This document shows positions 6,005 to 59,071 of a stretch of DNA of 60,745 bases, one piece after another. The translations under genes and the position numbers were made by a program. How positions within the stretch are numbered: the stretch's first letter is position 1; every line of letters begins with the position of its first letter. Below the pieces are notes generated by a model. The model was not told the DNA's origin. It worked only from the letters and a program-made list of their open reading frames with translations, and ran no database searches. Where the stretch lies: the IMG/VR virus record IMGVR_UViG_3300042870_000870. One strand, written 5' to 3'. Source of the DNA: an uncultured virus (IMG/VR IMGVR_UViG_3300042870_000870) (Duplodnaviria; Heunggongvirae; Uroviricota; Caudoviricetes).

Positions 6005-7210
6005 GTGCTAACTACATTAGAAAAATATTACGAAAATGGTTTGTTACACAAACAAACCCACCCAAATCTTGACTTAACTATTTGGAATTATTCCCCAAAA
6101 GTTCAGTACGAAAGATTATGGGATGAGATTACTTTGCAATGTCGTGGATTGGTAACCAACTCAAAAGGTGATATTGTTGCAAGACCATTTAAGAAATTTT
6201 TTAACTACGAGGAACATAAACCAGAAGATATCCCTAATGAAGATTATGTTGTCTATGAAAAAATGGATGGTTCGTTAGGTATTCTCTTTTATTACAAATA
6301 TGAATTAAGTGAAGAGAGAAGATATAATATATGGTTTAATAACAATTATGAAACAGGTATGGAAAGGTTCTTTGACCCTAACAATTTACCTGATTACGAT
6401 AATCCATATTATGACCCAACACCAAAAACAAAAGGTGAATGGATATTAGCAACTCGAGGTTCGTTTACATCACCACAAGCAATTAAAGGAAAAGAAATAC
6501 TTGACAGACACGATATTAGTGCGTGGAGAAAAGACAACACATATTTGTTTGAGATTATTTATCCTGAAAATAGAATTGTGGTTGATTATAAAGGAGAAGA
6601 AAAATTAGTTGTCCTTGGAGCTATTCATACTGAAACTGGTGAAGAAATACCCGATAGTAGTTTGTTTTGGACACAGGACTCGGGTTTTGAAGTTGTGATG
6701 ACATATAAAACTTGGGGTGAAACATACGACTTATTAAAAGAAGAAATATCTAAAGATAAAGAAGGTTACGTAATAAAATTCAAGAATGGTTTCCGAATGA
6801 AAATAAAAGGAGATGAATATGTTAGACTTCACAAAATTCTAACTAACATATCTAATCGTGACATATGGGAATATCTAAAAGATAATAAACCATTTGATGA
6901 GTTACTTGAAAAGGTTCCAGATGAATTTAATGATTGGGTTAAAACCACAATCAGAGATTTAAAATACGCATGTTATCAATTAAGAGAACGAGCGGGTAAA
7001 TTACATGATGGTTTTAGATATGGGAAATTTGGTGACAGAGACCCTGAACCATCTAAAAAAGAATTTGCTGAATTTGTAAATAAACAACAAAAAGTTTTAC
7101 ATGCAATTATGTTCGCAATGTGGAATGGAAATAATCAAAAAGTTGACGACATAATTTGGAAAATAGTTAAACCGGAATATTCAAAACCATTTAAGAAAGA
7201 TGAAAACTGA
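6005..7210 (+). CDS. T4 Rnl1-like RNA ligase
   Basis: CRGLV, ARPFKKFFN, motif I EKMDGS, ATRGSF, FEII, EGYV and MKIK. Confidence 0.88.
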   Translation: MLTTLEKYYENGLLHKQTHPNLDLTIWNYSPKVQYERLWDEITLQCRGLVTNSKGDIVARPFKKFFNYEEHKPEDIPNEDYVVYEKMDGSLGILFYYKYELSEERRYNIWFNNNYETGMERFFDPNNLPDYDNPYYDPTPKTKGEWILATRGSFTSPQAIKGKEILDRHDISAWRKDNTYLFEIIYPENRIVVDYKGEEKLVVLGAIHTETGEEIPDSSLFWTQDSGFEVVMTYKTWGETYDLLKEEISKDKEGYVIKFKNGFRMKIKGDEYVRLHKILTNISNRDIWEYLKDNKPFDELLEKVPDEFNDWVKTTIRDLKYACYQLRERAGKLHDGFRYGKFGDRDPEPSKKEFAEFVNKQQKVLHAIMFAMWNGNNQKVDDIIWKIVKPEYSKPFKKDEN

Positions 7211-19125: not shown

Positions 19126-19776
19126 TTATTTTTTATCCATTAATTTATTTATTAGTTTTTCACTAGCCTTTTTGAGAGCATTACTTAAAGATGTCTGATT
19201 AAATGAACCTCCTTCGTCAACAATAAGTGTTGACATAGAAACTTCAGATGATGACTCCTCAACAATAAGTTCTTTTTCTTTTTTACCGTCTTTTGTTAAT
19301 GTTCCTTTCAATCTAATAACCACTTCTTCCTCACCAGAATGGAAAACCGATATGTTCTTCTTTGTTGTAAGAACGTCTAAATAAACAATTTGTACTTTTA
19401 ATTTGTATGGAGATGATGCCGATAAATCGTAACCCTTTTCTTGTAAAAACTCTTCTAATATGTTTTTAACCCCAAATGCTAAATTTCTATTACCTGCTAG
19501 TTTACCAATTTTAACCTCATTGGTTACACTTTCGACCCAAATGTGGTCGTCGGCATCGTACCAAATATTTTCAGGGGAGTTTTTGAATGTACCATCGATT
19601 CTCCATTCAATCCAATTTATTACGTTTCTCTGTAATTCATGTTTACCTGAAAATTCTAAATAAACGAAGAATAATTGAAAACACAGTGCGAATGCAATCC
19701 AAAACCCAACTAATGATAAAAATATCATAGCAAGTTTGTCGCCAATGTTAATAGTAAGTGATTTGATTTTTTCCAT
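19126..19776 (-). CDS. Membrane-anchored hypothetical protein, first gene of the envelope operon
   Basis: N-terminal TM segment; TATTTATA motif upstream at 19874-19881. Confidence 0.65.
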   Translation of the reverse strand: MEKIKSLTINIGDKLAMIFLSLVGFWIAFALCFQLFFVYLEFSGKHELQRNVINWIEWRIDGTFKNSPENIWYDADDHIWVESVTNEVKIGKLAGNRNLAFGVKNILEEFLQEKGYDLSASSPYKLKVQIVYLDVLTTKKNISVFHSGEEEVVIRLKGTLTKDGKKEKELIVEESSSEVSMSTLIVDEGGSFNQTSLSNALKKASEKLINKLMDKK

Positions 19777-19870: not shown

Positions 19871-19958
19871 CCTTATAAATATCAAGATATGGTAACTAGT
19901 CAAAAAAAATTTATTAAAATATTTTTAACTTTTTCTTGTTTATATATATATTTATTGT

Positions 19959-19967
19959 TATCTTTGT
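19959..19967 (+). promoter_or_regulatory. Bacteroidota-type -7 promoter element ahead of the leader and tRNA operon
   Basis: TATCTTTG matches the TAnnTTTG consensus. Confidence 0.6.
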
Positions 19968-19996
19968 AGAAAGAAAAAAATATTAAATAAAATTCA

Positions 19997-20092
19997 ATGA
20001 GACAATTAACACATATGCCGTCAACATCAAACCAACTAAATTGGAATGAGCAACCTATGTCCATATGTCTCGATGATACTGATGTGGGTTAA
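19997..20092 (+). CDS. Putative attenuator leader peptide MRQLTHMPSTSNQLNWNEQPMSICLDDTDVG
   Basis: 31-codon ORF with an A-rich start region, lying between the promoter and the terminator. Confidence 0.7.
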   Translation: MRQLTHMPSTSNQLNWNEQPMSICLDDTDVG

Positions 20093-20114
20093 GTAATTAA
20101 CCTAATATAATTAG

Positions 20115-20149
20115 AAAACCTCGGGACTTAAAAAATCTCGAGGTTTTTT
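20115..20149 (+). terminator. Intrinsic terminator (attenuator) directly upstream of the tRNA operon
   Basis: AAAACCTCGGGA/TCTCGAGGTTTT stem plus T-run, 12 nt before tRNA-Pro. Confidence 0.8.
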
Positions 20150-20161
20150 GTTTTATACAAA

Positions 20162-20238
20162 TAGGGTAATGGACTAATGGCTAAGTCACTTGCTTTGGGA
20201 GCAAGGCATCATGGAGGTTCGAGTCCTCTTTACCCTAC
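20162..20238 (+). tRNA. tRNA-Pro(TGG)
   Basis: TAGGGTA/TACCCTA acceptor stem; CTTGC-TTTGGGA-GCAAG anticodon arm; GGTTCGAGTCC T arm. Confidence 0.9.
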
Positions 20239-20242
20239 AAAC

Positions 20243-20314
20243 GCTGATTTAGCTCAGAGGCAGAGCACGAAGCTGTTAACTTCGGGGTCCGGATATCGTA
20301 ATTCTGAATCAGCG
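20243..20314 (+). tRNA. tRNA-Asn(GTT) with atypical T-loop
   Basis: GCTGATT/AATCAGC; CGAAG-CTGTTAA-CTTCG; the T-loop region reads ATATCGTAA. Confidence 0.8.
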
Positions 20315-20319
20315 CAAAC

Positions 20320-20391
20320 ATCCGTGTAGTTCAATCGGTAGAACGTCGGTCTCCAAAACCGAAAATGAAGGTTCGAGTCCTTACATGGGTG
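20320..20391 (+). tRNA. tRNA-Trp(CCA)
   Basis: TCGGT-CTCCAAA-ACCGA anticodon arm; GGTTCGAGTCC. Confidence 0.9.
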
Positions 20392-20398
20392 CAATAAT

Positions 20399-20478
20399 AC
20401 CCGAGTGGTGGAATGGTATACACAGCGGTCTTAGAAACCGTGTCGAAAGGCGTGTCGGTTCGAGTCCGACCTTGGGTA
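20399..20478 (+). tRNA. tRNA-Leu(TAG)
   Basis: GCGGT-CTTAGAA-ACCGT; long variable arm. Confidence 0.9.
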
Positions 20479-20483
20479 CATAT

Positions 20484-20554
20484 TGTCCTTTGGTATAACG
20501 GTAGTACAAATGTTTTTGGAGCATCTAGTTGAGGTTCGAATCCTTGAGGGACAA
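20484..20554 (+). tRNA. tRNA-Gln(TTG)
   Basis: TGTCCTT/AGGGACA acceptor stem; TTTTGGA loop; GGTTCGAATCC. Confidence 0.85.
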
Positions 20555-20556
20555 CT

Positions 20557-20629
20557 GTGTTTATAGTGTTAATGGTTAGCACGTCAGTTTGTGGTACTGA
20601 TAGTATGGGTTCAAATCCCATTAAACACC
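20557..20629 (+). tRNA. tRNA-His(GTG)
   Basis: GTGTTTA/TAAACAC; TCAGT-TTGTGGT-ACTGA; C discriminator. Confidence 0.88.
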
Positions 20630-20691
20630 CTTTGGTTATTAGTGTTCCAAATCAAACAAAAAAATGGACTTTTGGAACATTAATAATATAT

Positions 20692-20766
20692 TGCGGGATG
20701 TGTAGAAAATGGTTATCTCGTCGGTCTCATAAGCCGAAGTTCTGGGTTCAAGTCCCAGTCCCGCAA
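20692..20766 (+). tRNA. tRNA-Met(CAT), initiator-like
   Basis: TGCGGGA/TCCCGCA; TCGGT-CTCATAA-GCCGA. Confidence 0.85.
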
Positions 20767-20902
20767 CTACAGAAGCAAAGTATTTTAAGTAAAATTTTGC
20801 AAAGTAAAAAAAAAGTTTTACATTCGTACCATAATTAAATGGGGTGAGATGTATTACCTATAGTTCCCATAAATGGGGTCATAAATTATTAATTAATTAA
20901 GT

Positions 20903-21536: not shown

Positions 21537-21609
21537 GCCCGAATAGCTCAGTTGGTAGAGCAGCTGATTTGTAATCAGCAGGTCGTCAGTTCGAGTCTGA
21601 CTTTGGGCT
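21537..21609 (+). tRNA. tRNA-Thr(TGT)
   Basis: Canonical cloverleaf; GCTGA-TTTGTAA-TCAGC. Confidence 0.93.
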
Positions 21610-21800
21610 CAACAGGTGACGACGGTGGTGGAACCCCACTGTCTATAAATCTCAACACCCGCCTTGATTCGCGGTATTATAGCGGTGAGAGTAGAGTTAT
21701 TACAAGTCGGGAGTAATTAACCCAATGACGAAAGTGTAACCACAGATATAGAAATATATTTGTTATGATGTACGAAAGGGTACGAAAAACCTGTTATTTT

Positions 21801-21873
21801 GGGATTGAGGTCAAACGGTTAAGATGTCGCCCTGTCACGGCGCACGGAGCGGGTTCAACTCCCGTCAGTCCCG
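21801..21873 (+). tRNA. tRNA-Asp(GTC)
   Basis: GGGATTG/CAGTCCC; CGCC-CTGTCAC-GGCG. Confidence 0.88.
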
Positions 21874-22080
21874 CAATGAGTAAGAAGTACTCAGTAAGTT
21901 TGGTAACGTTCTTTCAAGATGTTATGGTTGTCTCCTACCACGGCCTTAAGAGGGGGTCTCGGAATATGGGGGTAACAATCCCACCGAGTATGTTTGACTT
22001 TTTAAGCGGTAAGACGCGTTGGGTTTTTCAATAGGAAAAACTGTGAATATCTACTCACTGGGACTTCAGGTGGGACAATT

Positions 22081-22166
22081 GGAAGGATGGCAGAGTTGGT
22101 CTATCGCGTCGGTCTTGAAAACCGAAGTACTGAAAGGTACCGTGGGTTCGAATCCTACTCCTTCCG
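22081..22166 (+). tRNA. tRNA-Ser(TGA)
   Basis: GGAAGGA/TCCTTCC; TCGGT-CTTGAAA-ACCGA; long variable arm. Confidence 0.92.
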
Positions 22167-22171
22167 CATTT

Positions 22172-22243
22172 GCTCGGTTCGACTAGTGGTTAGGTCGCGT
22201 CCCTTTCACGGACGTAGCACGGGTTCGAATCCCGTACCGAGTA
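22172..22243 (+). tRNA. tRNA-Glu(TTC)
   Basis: CGTCC-CTTTCAC-GGACG; GGTTCGAATCC. Confidence 0.92.
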
Positions 22244-22260
22244 CTGAATATAATAAAAAC

Positions 22261-22902
22261 ATGGAGACAAAGATTATCAACGGAGATTTTAGAGATTGTG
22301 TGGTACCTGATGGTTTAGTGATAACTGACCCTCCATACAACCAAGAATATTCTTATAACGAATATAAGGATAAACTTACTGAAGAAGAATATATTGAACT
22401 ACTATCTAAGATACCAACTCCATGTGTAATCATTCATTATCCTGAAGAAACAATTAATTTGTTACCAAAAGCAATTAACGCAAAATGTGAACAAGTGGTT
22501 TGTTGGGTTTATAATTCTAACACGGGAAAACAAAGTCGATTAATTTCTTGGTGGGGATGTAAACCTGATTTTAAAAAGGTTAGGCAAGAATATAAAAATC
22601 TAAAAGACAAAAGAATTCAGAAAAGAATTGCTGAGGGTAAAACCGGAGCTAAACTTTATGATTGGTGGGAAATCAATCAAGTAAAAAATGTTAGCAAGGA
22701 AAAAACCGAACACCCTTGTCAAATACCCGAAGAATTAATTAGACGAATTATTCTTACAACGGCACAATCAAATCAAACAATCATTGATGTTTTCGGTGGT
22801 AGTGGTACAACATCAAAAGTCGCTAAAGAATTAGGATTTAATTCGATTAGTTACGAAATTGATGAGAAGTATTGTGAAATTATTAAGAATAGAATTACAT
22901 AA
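22261..22902 (+). CDS. DNA amino-methyltransferase (N6-A/N4-C, beta class)
   Basis: TDPPY before HPCQIP and DVFGGSGTT. True start is METKII at 22261. Confidence 0.88.
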   Translation: METKIINGDFRDCVVPDGLVITDPPYNQEYSYNEYKDKLTEEEYIELLSKIPTPCVIIHYPEETINLLPKAINAKCEQVVCWVYNSNTGKQSRLISWWGCKPDFKKVRQEYKNLKDKRIQKRIAEGKTGAKLYDWWEINQVKNVSKEKTEHPCQIPEELIRRIILTTAQSNQTIIDVFGGSGTTSKVAKELGFNSISYEIDEKYCEIIKNRIT

Positions 22903-22984
22903 AAACTTTTACTTTTTTATATTAAGATATTGATTTACAATATTTTATTTTGTATATTTGTTATATTACAAATATTTATAATAT

Positions 22985-23287
22985 ATGATAGATAAAATCA
23001 CATTATCGTTAATGTTATTTTTTAACACATTAACGTCATCTATCGACCCAAGTCTTTCTGATGAAAGAAAGTCTGTCAATCAAATAAAAAAACAGATTAA
23101 ATCTCTTGAAAGAAAAATTGAATGGGTTGAAGTAACAGATGAGAATTACGCTAGCAGGGCCGTCAAAACCAAAGGAATCACGGACGAGATTACCAAATTA
23201 AATGGTGAAATTGTAAAGATTGAGAAGGTTGCAAATTTAAAAGATAAATGGGCTAAGGAAGATTCCTTAACCAAATCGAAAAAATGA
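22985..23287 (+). CDS. Hypothetical coiled-coil protein with hydrophobic N-terminus
   Basis: ORF preceded by TATTTATA (22973-22980). Confidence 0.65.
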   Translation: MIDKITLSLMLFFNTLTSSIDPSLSDERKSVNQIKKQIKSLERKIEWVEVTDENYASRAVKTKGITDEITKLNGEIVKIEKVANLKDKWAKEDSLTKSKK

Positions 23288-23733
23288 AAAAAATTTTTTT
23301 AGTGCTAACGTTACTTTTGGGAGTGGAAGTCGTAGCAAATGGACAAGAGTGGTTTATAACTGCCACTCGAAAAGGCGGTCCATCAGATGGTTATATAACT
23401 GGTGGTTTTATGAAAAAAGGTTGGGGGTTTTATGCTGGTCTTCCTTATGGTGAAATAGGGGGTCCGAATGGTGGAATTTCAATTCCTCCTGGTGTTAATA
23501 CCAAAACGGGAAACGTATCTGATAACATGAAGTTCGGTGTTCTTAGACAATTAAAAGAAGATAAAGCAATTGTTGGATTTGGATTACAACCAACACTTGG
23601 TGGTAATAAACCAAATTTTCTTATAATGTACAATCCACTTAGGCCAAGTACCGTTATAAATTTATGGACAATTGGTAATTTAGTCGGTAGTGATTTCACA
23701 TTAGGACTTGGTTTATCGTATAAAGTAAAATAA
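23284..23733 (+). CDS. Secreted beta-rich hypothetical protein
   Basis: Signal peptide; terminator at 23751-23792. Confidence 0.65.
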   Translation: MKKIFLVLTLLLGVEVVANGQEWFITATRKGGPSDGYITGGFMKKGWGFYAGLPYGEIGGPNGGISIPPGVNTKTGNVSDNMKFGVLRQLKEDKAIVGFGLQPTLGGNKPNFLIMYNPLRPSTVINLWTIGNLVGSDFTLGLGLSYKVK

Positions 23734-23852
23734 ACATTTTTAGTTAAGTTAAAACCCTGAACAAACTAAAAAAAATTGTTCAGGGTTTTTTTATACCATT
23801 TTTTTTTATTATATTTGAATTATAGTTCTTTGATTTATTGGAAAAACAAAAT

Positions 23853-23937
23853 GCCTGAGTGATGAAATGGTATACATGACAGACTTAAAATCTGTTGAGC
23901 AGAAACGCTCGTGCGGGTTCAAGTCCCGCCTCAGGTA
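23853..23937 (+). tRNA. tRNA-Leu(TAA)
   Basis: ACAGA-CTTAAAA-TCTGT; long variable arm. Confidence 0.92.
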
Positions 23938-24089
23938 CAAATGTAATGATTCAGAAATGAGTGACGGAACGGACGCTACGTATGAAATGGAAACTTTTGA
24001 AGCACGTACAAAGGTGCTGATTTGAAACAAACCGTACAGACATTACATTTAAACACTATCGTTCTTTGAAAATAAAGGAGAAAATTAAT

Positions 24090-24338
24090 ATGGATATATT
24101 ATCATTTATTTTAGGAATGTCAATAGTTGTGGTTATCGCAGTTGCGGTAGTTGCGGTTATTGCCTTTGTTAAGGTTAATAAAACTAACAAAGAAATTGAA
24201 ACGATTCATACCATTATGGGTAATGAATCCGAAAGGTCGCATAGAGAGCGTGAAGAAGCAATTCAAAATGTTTATAGAACATTAGATTCACGACTTGATA
24301 AACTTGAGAGTAAAATTACAACAAGCCGTAAGGCATAA
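24090..24338 (+). CDS. Small membrane-anchored coiled-coil protein inside the tRNA operon
   Basis: MDILSFILGMSIVVVIAV TM segment; flanked by 19-20 nt inverted repeats. Confidence 0.7.
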   Translation: MDILSFILGMSIVVVIAVAVVAVIAFVKVNKTNKEIETIHTIMGNESERSHREREEAIQNVYRTLDSRLDKLESKITTSRKA

Positions 24339-24378
24339 CGATTAAATAAAAACTTTCAAAGACGATAGTGTTATTTTT

Positions 24379-24452
24379 GGTTCCGTAGCTCAGTTGGATA
24401 GAGCAACATCCTTCTAAGATGTGGGTCTTTGGTTCGAATCCAAACGGGATCA
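24379..24452 (+). tRNA. tRNA-Arg(TCT)
   Basis: ACATC-CTTCTAA-GATGT. Confidence 0.92.
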
Positions 24453-24505
24453 CGTAATCATTGAAAAAAACGATATCAGATTTTATCGTTAGATTAAACG
24501 ATAAT

Positions 24506-24579
24506 GGACTTGTAGCTCACTAGGTTAGAGCGGCACACTCATAATGTGAAGGTAATAGGTTCGATTCCTATCTGGTCCA
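24506..24579 (+). tRNA. tRNA with CAT anticodon (Ile2/lysidine-type, or elongator Met)
   Basis: CACA-CTCATAA-TGTG; D-arm TAGCTCA..GGTTAGAGC resembles tRNA-Ile2. Confidence 0.8.
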
Positions 24580-24706
24580 CTATTTAAAGTATGGGATTCC
24601 GATGGAAGTCCGCAAGAAAAATAGATGTTTTTCATCCATCAAAAAATCATCATAGAGGCCGCTAAATCGAGTTAGTGAAAATCTACATTCTCTGTGATGA
24701 TCATAT

Positions 24707-25147: not shown

Positions 25148-25244
25148 AAAATATTTTGTTTTTTCAAAAAGTATTCGTATATTTGTAAAAGAAATCAGAT
25201 AGATGGTTTCTAAAAACAAGAAATAGTTCTTTGAATTAAAAATA

Positions 25245-26040
25245 TTGGCCGCCTATGGTCAACAAAATAAACCACGAAAGTGGGATAAAGTGATTTGGTT
25301 TGGTTAAATCAAGTTGCGGTTTCAGCAATGGAACTTGAGTAGGCAAACAGAATATCGTTGAACCTTAATTACCGAGGGTAACACTGTAGGGAAAGTGGTT
25401 TAATGACTAAGCAATCCGAGTTGTTTGGTTGAGGTGGGAACACCAATAAGAATAATCTGTAGAGTTATTACAAGAAGTAGGACGTCCAATCTTACAATTG
25501 TGTGACTCAATATGATGGGAATCTTAAAACCGAAAGGTATGGTGAAGTACGAGTGGTGTCGTTATCATCCTTAATTGAACTCTACCAAGGGTTTAGTTTT
25601 GAAGGGGTCCAAAAATATGGTAGCAGGGATGTTACAGAGAGTAGTTTAGTATCGAGTTGTTCAAAAGATAACTTGGCTGGCAGACGAGCCACTACTTTCC
25701 AAATTCGGAACCAATAACAATTGTTAATTACGGTTTAACAACTCAAACAACAAGGAAAAGTGCTCGTCAGTCGTTGGAGACAGGTGACTACACAGTCGAG
25801 AGAGGTTCTCGGCCACAAAGGGTCCAAACCCAATGTGATTTTTAAGAAAGTTCTCTAAGTTCGCAAGACTTAGTCGGGGTGGCAACCTCGAAGAGTAATG
25901 AGTATTAAAAGAGTATCTAACGACTTAAGGATTGGTTAATCTAATTGACCGTCGCTGATTGGTACTACTCAAAAGGTAGTGGATAAGAGAAGAAAAGATA
26001 ATGTCTCTAAAGTCAATCGTTAAATGGTGTAATCTCAGCC
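25245..26040 (+). ncRNA. Large structured ncRNA, probably GOLLD-class
   Basis: About 800 nt without a credible ORF and richer in GC than its flanks. Many GNRA-capped hairpins (CCAC-GAAA-GTGG, ACC-GAAA-GGT, AAGTTC-GCAA-GACTT). Own promoter and boxA upstream, T-run downstream, next to a tRNA array. Confidence 0.65.
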
Positions 26041-26176
26041 TTTTCTTTTTTTAATTTTGTGTAAAATTAAATGGTGGAATCTAACGATATTAAAAACCGT
26101 TCGGCCCTAAAAAATTAGTCATAAGAAATTATGGCTTTTTTTGTGCTTTTAATAAAATTTTACTTATATTTGTTTT

Positions 26177-26929
26177 ATGAGAATAGTTTGTATATCAGAC
26201 ACACATAGTCTTCAGGATTTAATGTCTCACCCAATCCCCAAGGGTGATATATTGATACATTCAGGGGATATTTCAAATAAAGGAGGTGAAAAGGATGTCA
26301 CCAATTTTGTACATTGGTTTCAAAACATTGAGGGTTTTGATTCTAAGGTATTCATTGCCGGTAATCACGATTTTTGTTTTGAAAAAGTTAATCAACCTCA
26401 TCACAAAGGTGATTATGATTGGTTACATAATTTAATGTCGCCTGAGAATCTATCACAATCTAATGTTGAGTATTTGGAGGATAATTCATTTGTAATAGAG
26501 TCACCTGAATTTTCAAAACTAATTAAAATTTACGGAAGTCCTTGGCAACCAAATTTTTACGATTGGGCATTTAATTTACCGAGAATGGGTGATGAACTTA
26601 AATCTAAATGGGATATGATTCCTGATGATGTTAATATTTTAATCACTCACGGACCCCCAAATGAGATTAGAGATTTTGTAAGTAACTGGAGACAAGGTGA
26701 TATGAATGTTGGTTGTGAATTGTTAAGACACCAATTAGATAACAGAATTAAACCAGTACTACACGTATTTGGACATATCCACGGAGCATATGGTGCGGCA
26801 CTAATTAAGGATACTCTTTATGTAAACGCATCAACTTGTACTGAAAGATACGAACCAACAAATAAACCAATCATTGTTGACTTAACTGAAGTTGATGGTA
26901 AATTAATTGCAACATATGTCGAAGAATAA
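26177..26929 (+). CDS. Calcineurin-like metallophosphoesterase
   Basis: SDTH, HSGD, AGNHD, THGPP and FGHIH motifs. Confidence 0.9.
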   Translation: MRIVCISDTHSLQDLMSHPIPKGDILIHSGDISNKGGEKDVTNFVHWFQNIEGFDSKVFIAGNHDFCFEKVNQPHHKGDYDWLHNLMSPENLSQSNVEYLEDNSFVIESPEFSKLIKIYGSPWQPNFYDWAFNLPRMGDELKSKWDMIPDDVNILITHGPPNEIRDFVSNWRQGDMNVGCELLRHQLDNRIKPVLHVFGHIHGAYGAALIKDTLYVNASTCTERYEPTNKPIIVDLTEVDGKLIATYVEE

Positions 26930-27944: not shown

Positions 27945-28029
27945 ATTATTATACACATAGAAATTTAATGGGTTAAAATTTGTTTTTTAACCCTTTTTTA
28001 TCTATCTTTGTAAAAGTTCTTTAAAATAT

Positions 28030-28435
28030 GGGGATGCTTGGAATTGATTTCAGGTATCAGGGGTAAATGGCACGTAGTCAGACTTCATCTATGACTTAAA
28101 TCTATGGTGGAAAATTTTAGACGGCAACGTTTATAAAAACATGGAAATTGCAGGTTTACTTGCAACTTCTAACGTAGAAGTAGCCTAAGGCAAAACTACA
28201 ATCGGGTCGATGTACATATAACCTAGGAACAGAAGTACTCAAGGTGTAATACCACCCAAAGATGTATTAGGAGTCTCGTTCAGGGGTCTACTCCAACACA
28301 AGTGAACCCGACACAGTTATTGGTAACGATGTCAAAATAGGAACCAATTATTTGTCTGTTGTGAACTAACAGAATAAACGTGTAGTCATTTATTGTTGAA
28401 CCGGGAAGACCGGAGTTCGAGTCTCCGCATCTCCA
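28030..28435 (+). ncRNA. ssrA: tmRNA
   Basis: GGGGATG/CATCTCC acceptor with G3:U pair, GGAATTGA D-loop and GAGTTCGAGTCTC T arm. Tag ORF at 28123-28188; smpB adjacent. Confidence 0.92.
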
Positions 28436-28500
28436 CTCAAAGGGGTTTCATTAATTGGAACCCCTTTTTTATTTTAAAAAATTATACATATATTTGTAAT

Positions 28501-58609: not shown

Positions 58610-58861
58610 ATGACAAAAGAACAATTACAATTAGAAGTTAACCTACACGGAAGTAGGGTAATATCAAATCGTTTGGTTAATTCTCGAATTAATCGAATTG
58701 TTGGACTTGATATGAATGACCTTCCCGACACCTCCGACCTTTGTGATATTGTCGACGAACTTGACGAACTATTACAAAGTAAAGATTACACATTGGAAAA
58801 TATTAAAAACATTTTAGATGGTATTAATATGGAATTTATTCAAGATATGGTTTTTGGTTAA
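58610..58861 (+). CDS. Early hypothetical protein (Ala-free)
   Basis: MTKEQLQL start after TATATTTG; terminator at 58883-58913. Confidence 0.75.
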   Translation: MTKEQLQLEVNLHGSRVISNRLVNSRINRIVGLDMNDLPDTSDLCDIVDELDELLQSKDYTLENIKNILDGINMEFIQDMVFG

Positions 58862-59071
58862 AATAGGTTAAAGTAAATTGGAAACCCTCGGGATTATGTC
58901 TCGGGGGTTTTTTGTGTTTAAAAAAGTTCAAAAAAAATTTGGAAGTTCAAAAATCCATATCGAACCTGAACTTGTATAAAACTGGAAATGAAAATAAAGT
59001 TGGATAAGTTTGTAGTATATTAAATGAATTGTATTATATTTGATTATTCATTCACACCAAATAAAAACAAA

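What the first reader, a model, noticed from the sequence alone, without database searches (positions are those of the whole stretch)
19959..20766. Leader-peptide attenuator whose codons match the seven tRNAs it controls
Seen in sequence: a host-type promoter (TATCTTTG) is followed by a 31-codon ORF (19997-20092), an intrinsic terminator (20115-20149) and then tRNAs Pro, Asn, Trp, Leu(TAG), Gln, His and Met. Fourteen of the first 21 codons encode those seven amino acids: M1, Q3, H6, M7, P8, N12, Q13, L14 (CTA, exact cognate of the TAG anticodon), N15, W16, N17, Q19, P20 and M21. All seven are represented, including the run N-Q-L-N-W-N. A competing structure exists: GTCTCGA (20067-20073, codons 24-26) can pair with TCGGGAC (20121-20127, the terminator 5' arm), enclosing CTGAT/ATTAG and GGTTAA/TTAACC helices. 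Established: this is the geometry of trp/his-type ribosome-mediated attenuation. Inference: if any of these host tRNAs is cleaved or depleted, for example by anticodon-nuclease defences, the ribosome stalls early, the antiterminator forms and the phage transcribes replacements. That would be a multi-input tRNA-depletion sensor; I do not know of one described for phage tRNA arrays. Caveats: the tRNA-Met looks initiator-like, and stalls at codons 20-21 would probably still cover the antiterminator arm.
Basis: partly seen in the sequence, partly recalled or inferred. Interest (0 to 1): 0.92.

Follow-up and report, generated by a model that had tools for sequence, protein, structure and literature searches.

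The report
Leader-peptide attenuator controlling phage tRNAs
A giant phage places a tiny translated "test" gene and a transcription stop signal in front of its tRNA genes, and the codons of that test gene change together with the tRNA genes behind it in related phages, so the phage probably makes its tRNAs only when the cell runs short of them.

Summary
In the window a conserved Bacteroidota-type promoter, a 31-codon ORF (19997-20092), an intrinsic terminator (20112-20150) and a tRNA array lie exactly as described.

I collected 50 distinct homologous leaders, plus three very distant ones, from viral and metagenome contigs. I found them by a flanking protein, the constant 3' part or the terminator, never by the codons.
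- All 50 keep an ORF of 28-45 codons.
- The first tRNA starts 4-16 nt after the terminator in 42 of 48.
- The variable middle of the ORF tracks the array. In 35 loci with enough downstream sequence, 284 of 293 tRNA species have a cognate codon there. Permuted leader/array pairs give 74%, and the other five reading frames give 38-63%.
- Array types switch together with leader types (Pro-Asn-Trp-Leu-Gln; Ala-Ile-Phe-Lys-Trp-Arg-Cys-His; Tyr-Pro-Ser-Ala-Trp-Cys).
- The ORF's last ~10 codons are the 5' strand of a covarying antiterminator hairpin that takes the terminator's 5' arm.

Best reading: ribosome-mediated attenuation that turns the array on when any cognate tRNA is limiting. No experiment exists, and the anticodon-nuclease trigger is untested. 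I found no description in print.

The parts
19934..19966 (+). Promoter: -33-like TCTTG (19934-19938) and -7 box TATCTTTG (19959-19966), 20 nt apart. The transcription start is inferred near 19973.
   Evidence: Read. The block is conserved in the 10 aligned relatives. The extended motif TTATTNNTATCTTTGTA occurs 6 times in the window against 1.1 expected, including 18 nt upstream of the tmRNA gene. TAnnTTTG is the sigma-A -7 consensus in Flavobacterium (PMC9723704, passages read). The start site was not mapped.
19997..20092 (+). Leader ORF: 31 codons plus TAA.
   Evidence: All 50 distinct homologous leaders keep an ATG ORF of 28-45 codons, with stop TAA in 49 and TAG in 1. One more leader has a GTG start. 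The Val30 codon occurs as GTG, GTT, GTC and GTA.
20000..20059 (+). Variable sensor segment (codons 2-21). Every codon is cognate to a tRNA gene of the window.
   Evidence: 21 of 21, counting the start codon; for covariation with array content in relatives.
20067..20073 (+). Region 2: the 5' arm of the closing helix of the antiterminator (GTCTCGA, codons 24-26).
   Evidence: It pairs with 20121-20127 in the fold truncated after region 3. The helix is 96.6% paired over 43 aligned sequences, and 2 of its 7 pairs show changes on both sides (AU to GC in 8 rows, GC to AU in 2). It extends to 11 bp in L179 and L167, with CGAGG/CCTCG against CAGGG/CCCTG.
20079..20114 (+). Inner part of the antiterminator: middle helix CTGAT (20079-20083) with ATTAG (20110-20114), and an apical hairpin 20085-20104 that contains the stop codon (20090-20092).
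   Evidence: In the middle helix 7 of 8 pairs have changes on both sides and 75% of cells are paired. In the apical helix 2 of 5 pairs have such changes and 97% are paired.
20112..20155 (+). Intrinsic terminator: stem 20112-20126 with 20136-20150, loop 20127-20135, T-run 20145-20150 then GTTTT. Region 3, shared with the antiterminator, is 20121-20127.
   Evidence: z-scores -5.3 and -4.3. RNAalifold over 47 sequences gives 13 pairs, of which the 10 inner ones are standard pairs in all 47 rows and 2 have compensatory changes.
20163..20767 (+). Proximal tRNA array: Pro(TGG) 20163-20238, Asn(GTT) 20243-20314, Trp(CCA) 20320-20392, Leu(TAG) 20399-20479, Gln(TTG) 20484-20555, His(GTG) 20557-20630, Met(CAT) 20692-20767.
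   Evidence: tRNA-Pro starts 13 nt after the T-run.
21537..24580 (+). Distal tRNAs on the same strand, also represented in the leader: Thr(TGT) 21537-21610, Asp(GTC) 21801-21874, Ser(TGA) 22081-22167, Glu(TTC) 22172-22244, Leu(TAA) 23853-23938, Arg(TCT) 24379-24453, Met(CAT) 24506-24580.
   Evidence: Asp is called by Rfam and by ARAGORN at 95% thresholds. Whether they are co-transcribed with the proximal array is not shown.

Best explanation
This is a ribosome-mediated (leader-peptide) transcription attenuator that gates a phage tRNA array. Its leader ORF works as a codon list of the tRNAs it controls.

Proposed sequence of events:
1. Transcription starts at a Bacteroidota-type promoter.
2. 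A ribosome translates the 31-codon leader while RNA polymerase moves on.
3. If every tRNA needed for codons 2 to about 19 is available, the ribosome runs into the last ~10 codons. These form the 5' strand of a three-part antiterminator hairpin whose tip holds the stop codon.
4. The ribosome keeps that strand unpaired. The terminator's 5' arm then pairs with its 3' arm, and transcription stops 4-16 nt before the first tRNA.
5. If any one cognate tRNA is scarce, the ribosome stalls in the variable segment. The antiterminator folds and takes the terminator's 5' arm, and polymerase reads into the array. The tRNAs made relieve the stall.

The result is a multi-input OR-gate with product feedback, that is, a tRNA-supply homeostat.

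Shown by computation: the elements, their conservation, codon/array covariation and the covarying alternative structures.
Inferred: translation of the ORF, coupling to polymerase, the direction of the switch and the physiological trigger.
For: 1. Anatomy in the window.

2. Relatives were collected without using the codons or the tRNAs:
- by a flanking 216-aa protein (77 loci);
- by the constant 3' part of the ORF;
- by the terminator.
An nhmmer search over 303 sequences gave 58 distinct hits, 51 of them full-length.

3. The ORF is kept in 50 of these 51 as an ATG ORF of 28-45 codons and in the remaining one with GTG. The stop codon always lies in the apical hairpin.

4. Covariation of codons with the array:
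- tRNA present but cognate codon absent from the variable segment in only 9 of 293 cases (Asp 6, Glu 1, Leu-CTN 1, Leu-TTR 1).
- Pro 15/0/0/20, Ala 18/0/1/16, Leu-CTN 9/1/1/24, Arg-CGN 18/0/3/14, given as tRNA+codon+ / tRNA+codon- / tRNA-codon+ / tRNA-codon-.
- Coverage is 96.9% for own pairs against 73.6% permuted and 38-63% in the other five frames.
- Permuting within the Pro-led group gives 9 mismatches against a mean of 23.5 (minimum 13). Within the group without tRNA-Pro it gives 43 against 50.0, P = 0.0027.
- Per-lineage completeness against bulk coding windows: 12/12 (L156, L133), 10/10 (L179, L175), 9/9 (L170), 8/8 (L124), each P < 5e-5.

5. Natural experiments:
- Sister loci L175 and L155 (support 100/98). 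L155 lacks the Ala, Ile, Phe, Lys and Arg tRNAs, and its leader has lost the Phe, Ala and Arg(CGN) codons and one of two Lys codons.
- L184 against L173: a tRNA-Ser is replaced by a second tRNA-Pro, and the leader changes from ASWSYSPCSAYPA to VAWPYSCPAAPAYPA.
- Lys to Ile at CSKW where tRNA-Lys is absent (L138, L177, L248).
- The CTA codon sits at different positions in different lineages that carry Leu(TAG).

6. The window (Pro type) is sister to L141 (Ala-Ile-Phe-Lys type) at 99/94 on a tree of the non-variable columns, so leader type and array type switch together across an intervening segment with another history.

7. Structure:
- Terminator forms in 47 of 47, with compensatory pairs.
- Antiterminator is the truncated MFE in 40 of 41.
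- 88.3% of cells are paired against 25-47% when partners are slid; 11 of 20 pairs have changes on both sides; covariation score 0.223 against 0.144 (0 of 500 shuffles reach it).

8. Ribosome-mask folding: the antiterminator forms in 47, 46, 45 and 46 of 48 with the A-site at codons 6, 10, 17 and 19, and in 0 of 48 with the ribosome at codon n-4 or at the stop.

9. No room for a second promoter: the gap is 4-16 nt in 42 of 48.

10. Codon choice in the leader: CTA is 11 of 12 Leu-CTN codons (38% in bulk), and NNC codons of U34-read boxes are nearly absent, 4 of 257.

11. Leader-peptide attenuation and the TAnnTTTG promoter are reported in flavobacteria (PMC9723704, passages read).
Against: - There is no experimental evidence of translation, termination or read-through.
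- The match is not one-to-one in the other direction. Only 474 of 738 variable-segment codons (64%) have a cognate tRNA within the 1.3-2.7 kb of downstream sequence held. Examples are Phe or Tyr codons in Pro-type leaders, and His codons in L066, L067 and L017 without a tRNA-His in the sequence held.
- Exceptions exist. L271 has leader and terminator followed by a promoter-like motif and a protein ORF, with no tRNA in 296 nt. L248 keeps Phe, Ile and Ala codons although its array starts with Trp. L066 and L067 keep the Trp codon without a tRNA-Trp.
- The region 2:3 helix alone is short (7 bp with a G-U pair) and is no better than shuffles in the main group (duplex -7.6 kcal/mol, z about -0.4). 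Support comes from the whole hairpin and from covariation.
- The start-codon:region-2 pairing that would give default termination is not conserved in the ATGAAACA subgroup. With the A-site at codon 14 the equilibrium model gives the antiterminator in only 23 of 48.
- Related sequences are not independent. The pooled sign test counts amino-acid classes that switch together, and only 1-5 starred independent pairs exist per class.
- The host, and whether it couples transcription to translation, are inferred only.
Confidence: 0.8

Rival explanations
1. The attenuator is real but senses general translation capacity (ribosome availability, ribosome-polymerase coupling, amino-acid starvation) rather than the supply of the particular tRNAs. 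On this reading the codon match is a by-product, for example of using codons that the phage's tRNAs decode well.
For: The architecture would respond to any slowing of the ribosome. 36% of the variable-segment codons have no cognate tRNA gene in the downstream sequence held. Leaders persist for a while after tRNA loss (L248, L066, L067).
Against: Completeness is specific. Rare species (Trp, Cys, His, Arg-CGN) are each represented whenever their tRNA gene is present: 0 misses in 33, 17, 16 and 18 loci. Codons change when tRNA genes are lost or swapped (L155 against L175, L184 against L173). Permutation within each group still shows a match. A general sensor would not need this.
Confidence: 0.08
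2. The small ORF is an independent gene for a 31-residue phage peptide with its own terminator. The tRNA array is expressed by leaky read-through, and the codon match is incidental.
For: The ORF is conserved, and its C-terminal half (MSICLDDTDVG) is nearly invariant in the main group.
Against: The C-terminal half is replaced by unrelated residues in other lineages (HNSLGDWNTI, SRSVCMNLC, YRSSNLFYK) while the RNA hairpins it encodes are kept through compensatory changes. The N-terminal half varies with the array. The same promoter drives tRNA-Thr directly, without a leader, in L025. No Pfam-type search was possible for so short a peptide, and none was run.
Confidence: 0.04
3. The leader acts without translation as an RNA that binds tRNA anticodons directly. 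It would be a multi-specifier, T-box-like sensor of uncharged tRNA, or a tRNA sponge.
For: Codon-anticodon complementarity is exactly what the data show. It cannot by itself tell a ribosome from direct pairing.
Against: All the matching triplets lie in one frame that starts with ATG or GTG and ends at a conserved stop. Coverage is 97% in frame and 38-63% in the other frames. Length changes between leader types are in-frame. No T-box or other Rfam family matches 19900-20330 even at E up to 10, apart from a His_leader hit that is only the terminator. No conserved structure presents the triplets in loops: the variable segment has no conserved fold.
Confidence: 0.04
4. Reverse logic: completed translation gives read-through and stalling gives termination, so the array is made only when translation is healthy.
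For: Without a ribosome, 32 of 48 sequences fold so that the terminator arm is not held by region 2. An untranslated leader may therefore terminate.
Against: The antiterminator's whole 5' strand lies inside the last ~10 codons, so a translating or terminating ribosome must melt it. It forms in 0 of 48 with the ribosome at codon n-4 or at the stop, and in 45-47 of 48 for stalls at codons 6, 10, 17 and 19.
Confidence: 0.03

Closest known systems
Leader-peptide transcription attenuators of amino-acid biosynthesis operons (trp, his, leu, thr, ilvGMEDA, pheA). Textbook knowledge, recalled. Rfam families His_leader, Trp_leader and the like.
   Same: A promoter-proximal short ORF with regulatory codons, an intrinsic terminator, and an overlapping antiterminator whose formation depends on where the ribosome sits. 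Stalling gives read-through. The thr and ilv leaders already combine codons of two or three amino acids (recalled).
   Different: The regulated genes are tRNAs, the very molecules that are sensed, not biosynthetic enzymes, so the feedback is direct. Up to 12-13 species are sensed with mostly one to three codons each instead of runs of one codon. The element is phage-encoded. There is no sequence membership: the Rfam His_leader hit scores 25.8 bits against a gathering score of 49 and aligns only the terminator.
pheST (pheM leader) attenuator of E. coli phenylalanyl-tRNA synthetase (recalled, not checked in a paper here)
   Same: Leader-peptide attenuation used to adjust a component of the translation apparatus to the supply of charged tRNA.
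   Different: It has a single input (Phe), regulates a synthetase rather than tRNA genes, and is cellular rather than viral.
T-box riboswitches
   Same: They sense tRNA status through codon-like specifier-anticodon pairing and switch between a terminator and an antiterminator.
   Different: A T-box needs no ORF or ribosome, reads one tRNA, and has conserved stem I and T-box motifs. Here no Rfam T-box hit was found and the triplets form an ORF in a single frame.
Phage tRNA arrays as codon compensation or as counter-defence to tRNA-targeting immunity (PMC10264068 and PMC12409363: search listing and start of abstract only)
   Same: Phage-encoded tRNAs are proposed to replace host tRNAs that are scarce or cleaved.
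   Different: In what I saw of those papers the subject is the tRNAs themselves, not a cis-regulatory sensor. Here the new element is the attenuator that would make expression demand-driven.

Membership tests
Ribosome-mediated (leader-peptide) transcription attenuator | A short ORF between the promoter and the regulated genes, conserved as an ORF | tested here: met
   ORF 19997-20092. 50 of 51 full-length homologs keep an ATG ORF of 28-45 codons and 1 has GTG.
Ribosome-mediated (leader-peptide) transcription attenuator | Regulatory codons in the ORF that relate to the regulated function | tested here: met
   284 of 293 downstream tRNA species have a cognate codon in the variable segment. Controls give 74% (permuted pairs) and 38-63% (other frames).
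Ribosome-mediated (leader-peptide) transcription attenuator | An intrinsic terminator between the ORF and the regulated genes | tested here: met
   (hairpin in 47 of 47, compensatory pairs). The first tRNA lies 4-16 nt downstream in 42 of 48.
Ribosome-mediated (leader-peptide) transcription attenuator | A mutually exclusive antiterminator that shares the terminator's 5' arm and overlaps the ORF | tested here: met
   40 of 41; 88% paired, 11 of 20 pairs with changes on both sides.
Ribosome-mediated (leader-peptide) transcription attenuator | An anti-antiterminator (region 1:2) that gives termination when the leader is not translated | tested here: inconclusive
   AUGAGACA:UGUCUCG pairs in the main group. 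Without a ribosome 32 of 48 sequences do not form the antiterminator. The pairing is not kept in the ATGAAACA subgroup.
Ribosome-mediated (leader-peptide) transcription attenuator | Read-through depends on translation of the leader and on the supply of charged tRNA | not testable with these tools
   Only an equilibrium masking model was run. Metatranscriptome contigs bridge the terminator but cannot show RNA ends or exclude DNA.
Rfam His_leader (RF00514) and other curated leader families | A score at or above the family's gathering threshold | tested here: not met
   25.8 bits against 49, with only the terminator hairpin aligned. No other leader family was hit.
T-box riboswitch | Match to the Rfam T-box model; a single specifier; no ORF required | tested here: not met
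   No T-box hit at E up to 10 in 19900-20330. The triplets form one ORF.

The most novel reading that the evidence does not exclude
The attenuator is a counter-defence sensor. It detects tRNA-targeting host immunity (anticodon nucleases and the like) or phage-induced decay of host tRNAs through the effect on translation of a codon "barcode", and it answers by transcribing replacement tRNAs. The barcode is re-written by evolution each time the array gains or loses a tRNA.

This would be the first viral circuit known to me that senses tRNA depletion and feeds back through its own tRNA products. The same window also encodes an Rnl1-type RNA ligase, a tmRNA and a GOLLD RNA, which fits a translation-repair theme but proves nothing.
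Probability: 0.25. Interest if true: 0.95.

Novelty: new variant of a known kind. Interest (0 to 1): 0.9.

Why it matters
Why phages carry tRNA genes has long been debated, with codon compensation, host tRNA decay and escape from tRNA-cleaving defences all proposed. How their expression is controlled is hardly known.
- A leader whose codons list the tRNAs behind it implies that these phages measure tRNA supply directly and make tRNAs on demand. That makes the debate testable, because the sensor codons say which shortages matter to the phage.
- It extends classical attenuation to a new class of regulated genes (tRNAs, with direct product feedback) and to many inputs at once, up to 12 species in about 22 codons.
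- It offers a compact, re-programmable part for synthetic biology: a sensor of the availability of chosen tRNAs.
- It gives a rule for annotating many uncultured jumbo-phage contigs from fresh water.

Tried and rejected
- Rfam His_leader hit at 20018-20153: only the terminator hairpin aligns and the score is below threshold. Rejected as membership.
- Cultured phages (INPHARED, blastn): 107 records matched, all through tRNA genes, and none covers the leader.
- Species genomes (one scan, terminator pattern of the CCTCGGGAC allele only): one hit, L303. It is an ordinary terminator after the end of a protein-coding ORF, with no leader ORF and no tRNA. This scan does not show that the family is absent from cellular genomes.
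- Leader-HMM self-hit at window 58844-58919: an ordinary gene-end terminator of the same style after a 104-codon ORF. Model R1 does not find it.
- L181 and L137 (terminator-pattern hits): an ORF plus terminator followed by a sigma-70-like promoter and then tRNAs. No clear codon match; left out of all counts.
- A local hairpin AACCUAUGU:AUGUGGGUU, seen in the window's full-length fold, is not kept in the other leader types. Rejected.
- Region 2:3 duplex tested alone: not better than shuffles in the main group.
- MAFFT alignments A2 and A3 misplace region 2 in 7 divergent rows. For that reason I used per-sequence folds and a covariance-model alignment. That alignment contains 2 spurious antisense hits, and it leans towards the model.
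- RNA runs: only contigs were available. One 151-nt contig identical to 20040-20190 (X1) and one 489-nt contig of an L009-like relative (X2) join the leader to tRNA sequence across the terminator. They show no ends and no strand, and DNA carry-over is not excluded. The absence of cover elsewhere means nothing.
- Whole-genome tRNA complement: no genome is held for the window and the IMG/VR record is not held. tRNAs outside the fetched 1.3-2.7 kb are therefore unknown, which inflates the "codon without tRNA" cells.
Full report
**1. What is in the window**

- A -7 box TATCTTTG lies at 19959-19966, with a TCTTG 20 nt upstream.
- An A-rich 5' leader follows.
- The ORF runs 19997-20092 and encodes MRQLTHMPSTSNQLNWNEQPMSICLDDTDVG.
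- A 15-bp hairpin, 20112-20126 with 20136-20150, is followed by T6GT4. The fold z-scores are -5.3 and -4.3.
- tRNA-Pro starts 13 nt later.

ARAGORN finds Pro, Trp, Leu(TAG), Gln, His and Met. Rfam adds a tRNA at 20243-20314 with anticodon GTT and a defective T stem. That tRNA is 97% identical to Asn(GTT) genes that ARAGORN does call in relatives. Further tRNAs follow on the same strand up to 24580: Thr, Asp, Ser, Glu, Leu-TAA, Arg-TCT and Met.

The upstream gene (19126-19776) is on the other strand, so the terminator does not end an incoming gene. The Rfam His_leader hit (25.8 bits, threshold 49) aligns only the terminator and means nothing.

**2. Is the codon match more than chance within the window?**

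Only partly.
- 14 of the first 21 codons fall in the seven classes of the proximal array. Those classes make up 19.7% of codons in 33 long ORFs (binomial P = 3.6e-6).
- But 6 of 266 small ORFs of the window score as high.
- Against all 13 tRNA species of the window, 21 of 21 codons are cognate. This is unique among the 266 small ORFs and is never reached in 10,528 coding windows.
- All 13 of 13 species are represented in the ORF. P = 0.0025, and among 143 small ORFs only the leader achieves it.

**3. Relatives**

The window is identical over this region to three IMG/VR contigs, one of them 297,651 bp long. It is therefore a jumbo phage.

None of my three ways of finding relatives used the variable codons or the tRNAs:
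- the divergently transcribed 216-aa protein: 77 loci at 61-100% identity;
- the constant 3' part of the ORF: 19 viral stretches and 117 metagenome stretches, most of them chance matches;
- the terminator: 59 viral stretches.

A profile of the leader run over all 303 sequences gave 123 hits and 58 distinct sequences. Of these, 51 are full-length. 50 of the 51 hold an ATG ORF: 31 or 32 codons in 41, and 28-45 overall. The stop is TAA in 49 and TAG in 1. The remaining one starts with GTG.

Close relatives of the flanking protein that lack the leader also lack the proximal array (for example L008 and L011, where a protein gene follows). In L025 the same promoter drives tRNA-Thr directly.

**4. 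Leader codons follow the array**

- Pro-led arrays (Pro, Asn, Trp, Leu-TAG, Gln, with or without His, Met, Cys, Arg) have leaders such as ...TSTSNQLNWNEQPM...
- Arrays starting Ala, Ile, Phe, Lys, Trp, Arg-ACG, Cys, His have ...MSFTICSKWADERAM...
- L155 (Cys, Trp, His, Thr, Glu) has ...TTSSTVCTTWHQEC...
- L156 (12 species) has MKQFKHIMSFISCSKWASQRHIR..., in which every codon is cognate.

Three much more distant members were found only through the terminator:
- L184: leader ...IASWSYSPCSAYPA..., array Tyr, Pro, Ser, Ala, Trp, Cys.
- L173: leader ...VAWPYSCPAAPAYPA..., array Tyr, Pro, Pro, Ala, Trp, Cys.
- L139: leader with Asn, Gln, Ile-ATA, Leu, Lys, Ala and Val codons, array Ala, Gln, Ile-TAT, Asn, Lys, Leu-TAG, Val.

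In the 35 loci with at least 1300 nt downstream, I compared each array with the variable segment of its leader (codons 2 to n-10):

| Measure | Result |
|---|---|
| tRNA species with a cognate codon in its own leader | 284 of 293 (the 9 misses: Asp 6, Glu 1, Leu-CTN 1, Leu-TTR 1; Asp codons sit in the constant part) |
| Same, leaders and arrays permuted | 73.6% (maximum 86% of 5000) |
| Same, the five other reading frames | 38-63% |
| Mismatches after permuting only within the Pro-led group | 9 observed, mean 23.5, minimum 13 |
| Mismatches after permuting only within the group without tRNA-Pro | 43 observed, mean 50.0, P = 0.0027 |
| Independent pairs on starred branches of a tree built without the variable columns | 19.4 the same way, 1.4 the opposite way |

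The pooled pairs of the last row overstate independence, because several classes switch together.

On that same tree the window groups with an Ala-type locus (L141) at 99/94. The two share a variant of the stop-codon hairpin. The variable segment and the array therefore switch together across an intervening piece with a different history.

Sister loci L175 and L155 (100/98) differ by the Ala, Ile, Phe, Lys and Arg tRNAs. Their leaders differ by loss of the Phe, Ala and Arg codons and of one Lys codon.

Codon choice points the same way:
- Leu-CTN codons are CTA in 11 of 12, against 38% in bulk.
- C-ending codons of the boxes read by U34 tRNAs number 4 of 257.

Against a strict one-to-one mapping (details in the evidence against the best explanation):
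- 36% of variable-segment codons have no tRNA gene in the sequence held.
- L248, L066 and L067 keep codons whose tRNA gene is gone.
- L271 has leader and terminator but no tRNA in the 296 nt that follow.

**5. RNA switch**

The terminator hairpin forms in 47 of 47 aligned sequences, and 2 of its pairs change on both sides.

When the RNA is cut after the terminator's 5' arm, as it is before the 3' arm has been made, 40 of 41 distinct sequences fold into one long hairpin (mean z -2.3). It has three parts:
- a closing helix between ORF codons ~24-26 (window 20067-20073) and the terminator arm (20121-20127);
- a middle helix (20079-20083 with 20110-20114);
- an apical hairpin that holds the stop codon.

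The closing helix covaries: A-U to G-C in 8 rows and G-C to A-U in 2. It extends to 11 bp in L179 and L167, with CGAGG/CCTCG against CAGGG/CCCTG.

On a covariance-model alignment (43 rows, two of them spurious antisense hits):
- 88.3% of cells pair, against 25-47% when the partners are slid;
- 11 of 20 pairs show changes on both sides;
- the covariation score exceeds all 500 shuffles.
That alignment leans towards the model. The per-sequence folds do not.

The C-terminal half of the peptide is replaced by unrelated residues in divergent lineages while the helices stay. The constraint there is therefore on the RNA.

**6. Which way the switch goes**

I folded each leader with 30 nt masked for a ribosome.

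| Ribosome position | Antiterminator holds the terminator arm |
|---|---|
| A-site at codon 6 | 47 of 48 |
| A-site at codon 10 | 46 of 48 |
| A-site at codon 14 | 23 of 48 (the start region can re-pair with region 2 behind the ribosome) |
| A-site at codon 17 | 45 of 48 |
| A-site at codon 19 | 46 of 48 |
| A-site at codon 21 | 19 of 48 |
| Codon n-4 or the stop codon | 0 of 48 |
| No ribosome | 16 of 48 |

Stalling in the variable segment therefore favours read-through, and completed translation favours termination, as in the classical attenuators. This is an equilibrium model, not evidence of kinetics. The start-codon:region-2 pairing is not conserved in the ATGAAACA subgroup.

A separate promoter between terminator and tRNAs is excluded by space in most loci: the gap is 4-16 nt in 42 of 48, 25-84 nt in 5, and no tRNA follows in 1.

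The promoter reading rests on three things:
- conservation of the block;
- recurrence of the motif, 6 against 1.1 expected, including one copy 18 nt upstream of the tmRNA gene;
- the published flavobacterial sigma-A -7 consensus TAnnTTTG (PMC9723704, passages read). The same paper reports strong clues for leader-peptide attenuation upstream of amino-acid operons in Flavobacterium.

The host is not identified.

**7. Expression data**

Only assembled contigs of metatranscriptome runs were available. One contig is identical to 20040-20190. One contig from an L009-like relative joins leader, terminator and tRNA sequence. These are compatible with read-through RNA, but they show no ends and cannot exclude DNA.

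**8. Comparison with what is known**

The element works like the trp, his, leu, thr and ilv leader-peptide attenuators. It meets four of their defining sequence features; the region 1:2 feature is inconclusive, and the functional feature cannot be tested here.

It belongs to no curated Rfam leader family and is not a T-box. It differs in three ways:
- in what it controls: tRNA genes, which are also the sensed molecules;
- in the number of inputs;
- in being viral.

Five of my seven full-text searches looked for such an element, and none found one:
- phage, tRNA, attenuator, leader peptide (60 papers, 20 listed, none relevant by title or abstract start);
- phage-encoded tRNA, transcription attenuation (0 papers);
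- tRNA array, leader peptide (0 papers);
- tRNA operon, leader peptide, attenuation (3 papers, none relevant);
- viral tRNA, ribosome stalling, terminator, phage (3 papers, none relevant).
The other two looked for context. The library lacks most subscription journals, so this is not proof of absence.

Recent papers propose that phage tRNAs replace host tRNAs cleaved by defence systems (PMC10264068 and PMC12409363; listing and start of abstract only). The attenuator would fit that idea, but nothing here tests it.

**9. Verdict**

The finding is a new variant of a known kind of regulation, and it deserves experiments.

My confidence:
- about 0.95 that a conserved leader-ORF/antiterminator/terminator unit with codons matched to the array exists;
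- about 0.8 that it works as a stall-activated attenuator;
- about 0.25 that its main trigger is tRNA-targeting defence.

Noticed in passing
window 25637-26041 (+): A GOLLD RNA (Rfam RF02032, 316 bits, full length) lies about 1 kb downstream of the last tRNA on the same strand. A copy of the promoter motif lies at 25171-25187.
   Followed up: no
window 28030-28438 (+): A phage-encoded tmRNA (Rfam 76.9 bits; ARAGORN tag peptide ATSNVEVA) with the same promoter motif 18 nt upstream, at 27996-28012.
   Followed up: partly
window 6005-7210 (+) and 26177-26929 (+): An Rnl1-type RNA ligase domain (PF09511, E 4e-17) and a calcineurin-like metallophosphoesterase (PF00149). From memory, T4 uses Rnl1 with a kinase-phosphatase to repair tRNA cut by an anticodon nuclease. 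This is suggestive context for a tRNA-damage theme and is untested.
   Followed up: no
window 20243-20314 (+): The window's tRNA-Asn(GTT) has two mismatched T-stem pairs and an atypical T loop. ARAGORN rejects it even at 80% thresholds, while relatives carry a normal copy. It may be a decaying gene, yet the leader still holds three Asn codons.
   Followed up: partly
L124, L112, L138 and others: first gene of the Ala-type arrays: The first tRNA, Ala(TGC), scores barely above the Rfam threshold in several loci (about 30 bits). By my own reading of the sequence printed, it has two acceptor-stem mismatches but keeps G3:U70. ARAGORN calls it only at relaxed thresholds in most loci.
   Followed up: no
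L025 and L020 (upstream region, oriented as the window): The same conserved promoter block drives tRNA-Thr with no leader (L025) or with about 90 nt of other sequence (L020). The attenuator is therefore an optional module between the promoter and the tRNAs in this phage group.
   Followed up: partly
window 58880-58915 (+): An ordinary gene-end terminator with nearly the same stem sequence (AAACCCTCGGGA...TCTCGGGGGTTTTTTG) as the leader's terminator. This phage group re-uses one terminator design.
   Followed up: yes
L181:1-300 and L137:1-260 (oriented extracts): A 37-46-codon ORF followed by a strong terminator whose 5' arm (CCAAAACCCC) is complementary to GGGGTTTTGG near the ORF's end. A sigma-70-like promoter and a tRNA array come next. 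This may be an analogous device in phages of another host group. No clear codon match was seen.
   Followed up: no
window 22087-22902 (+): The 271-codon ORF overlaps tRNA-Ser and tRNA-Glu at its 5' end. The real gene is probably the N6/N4 DNA methylase (PF01555) starting at an internal ATG after 22244.
   Followed up: no
window 20630-20692 (+): Reading by eye, the 61-nt spacer before tRNA-Met seems to hold an inverted repeat (GTTCCAAA...TTTGGAAC). Its function is unknown.
   Followed up: no
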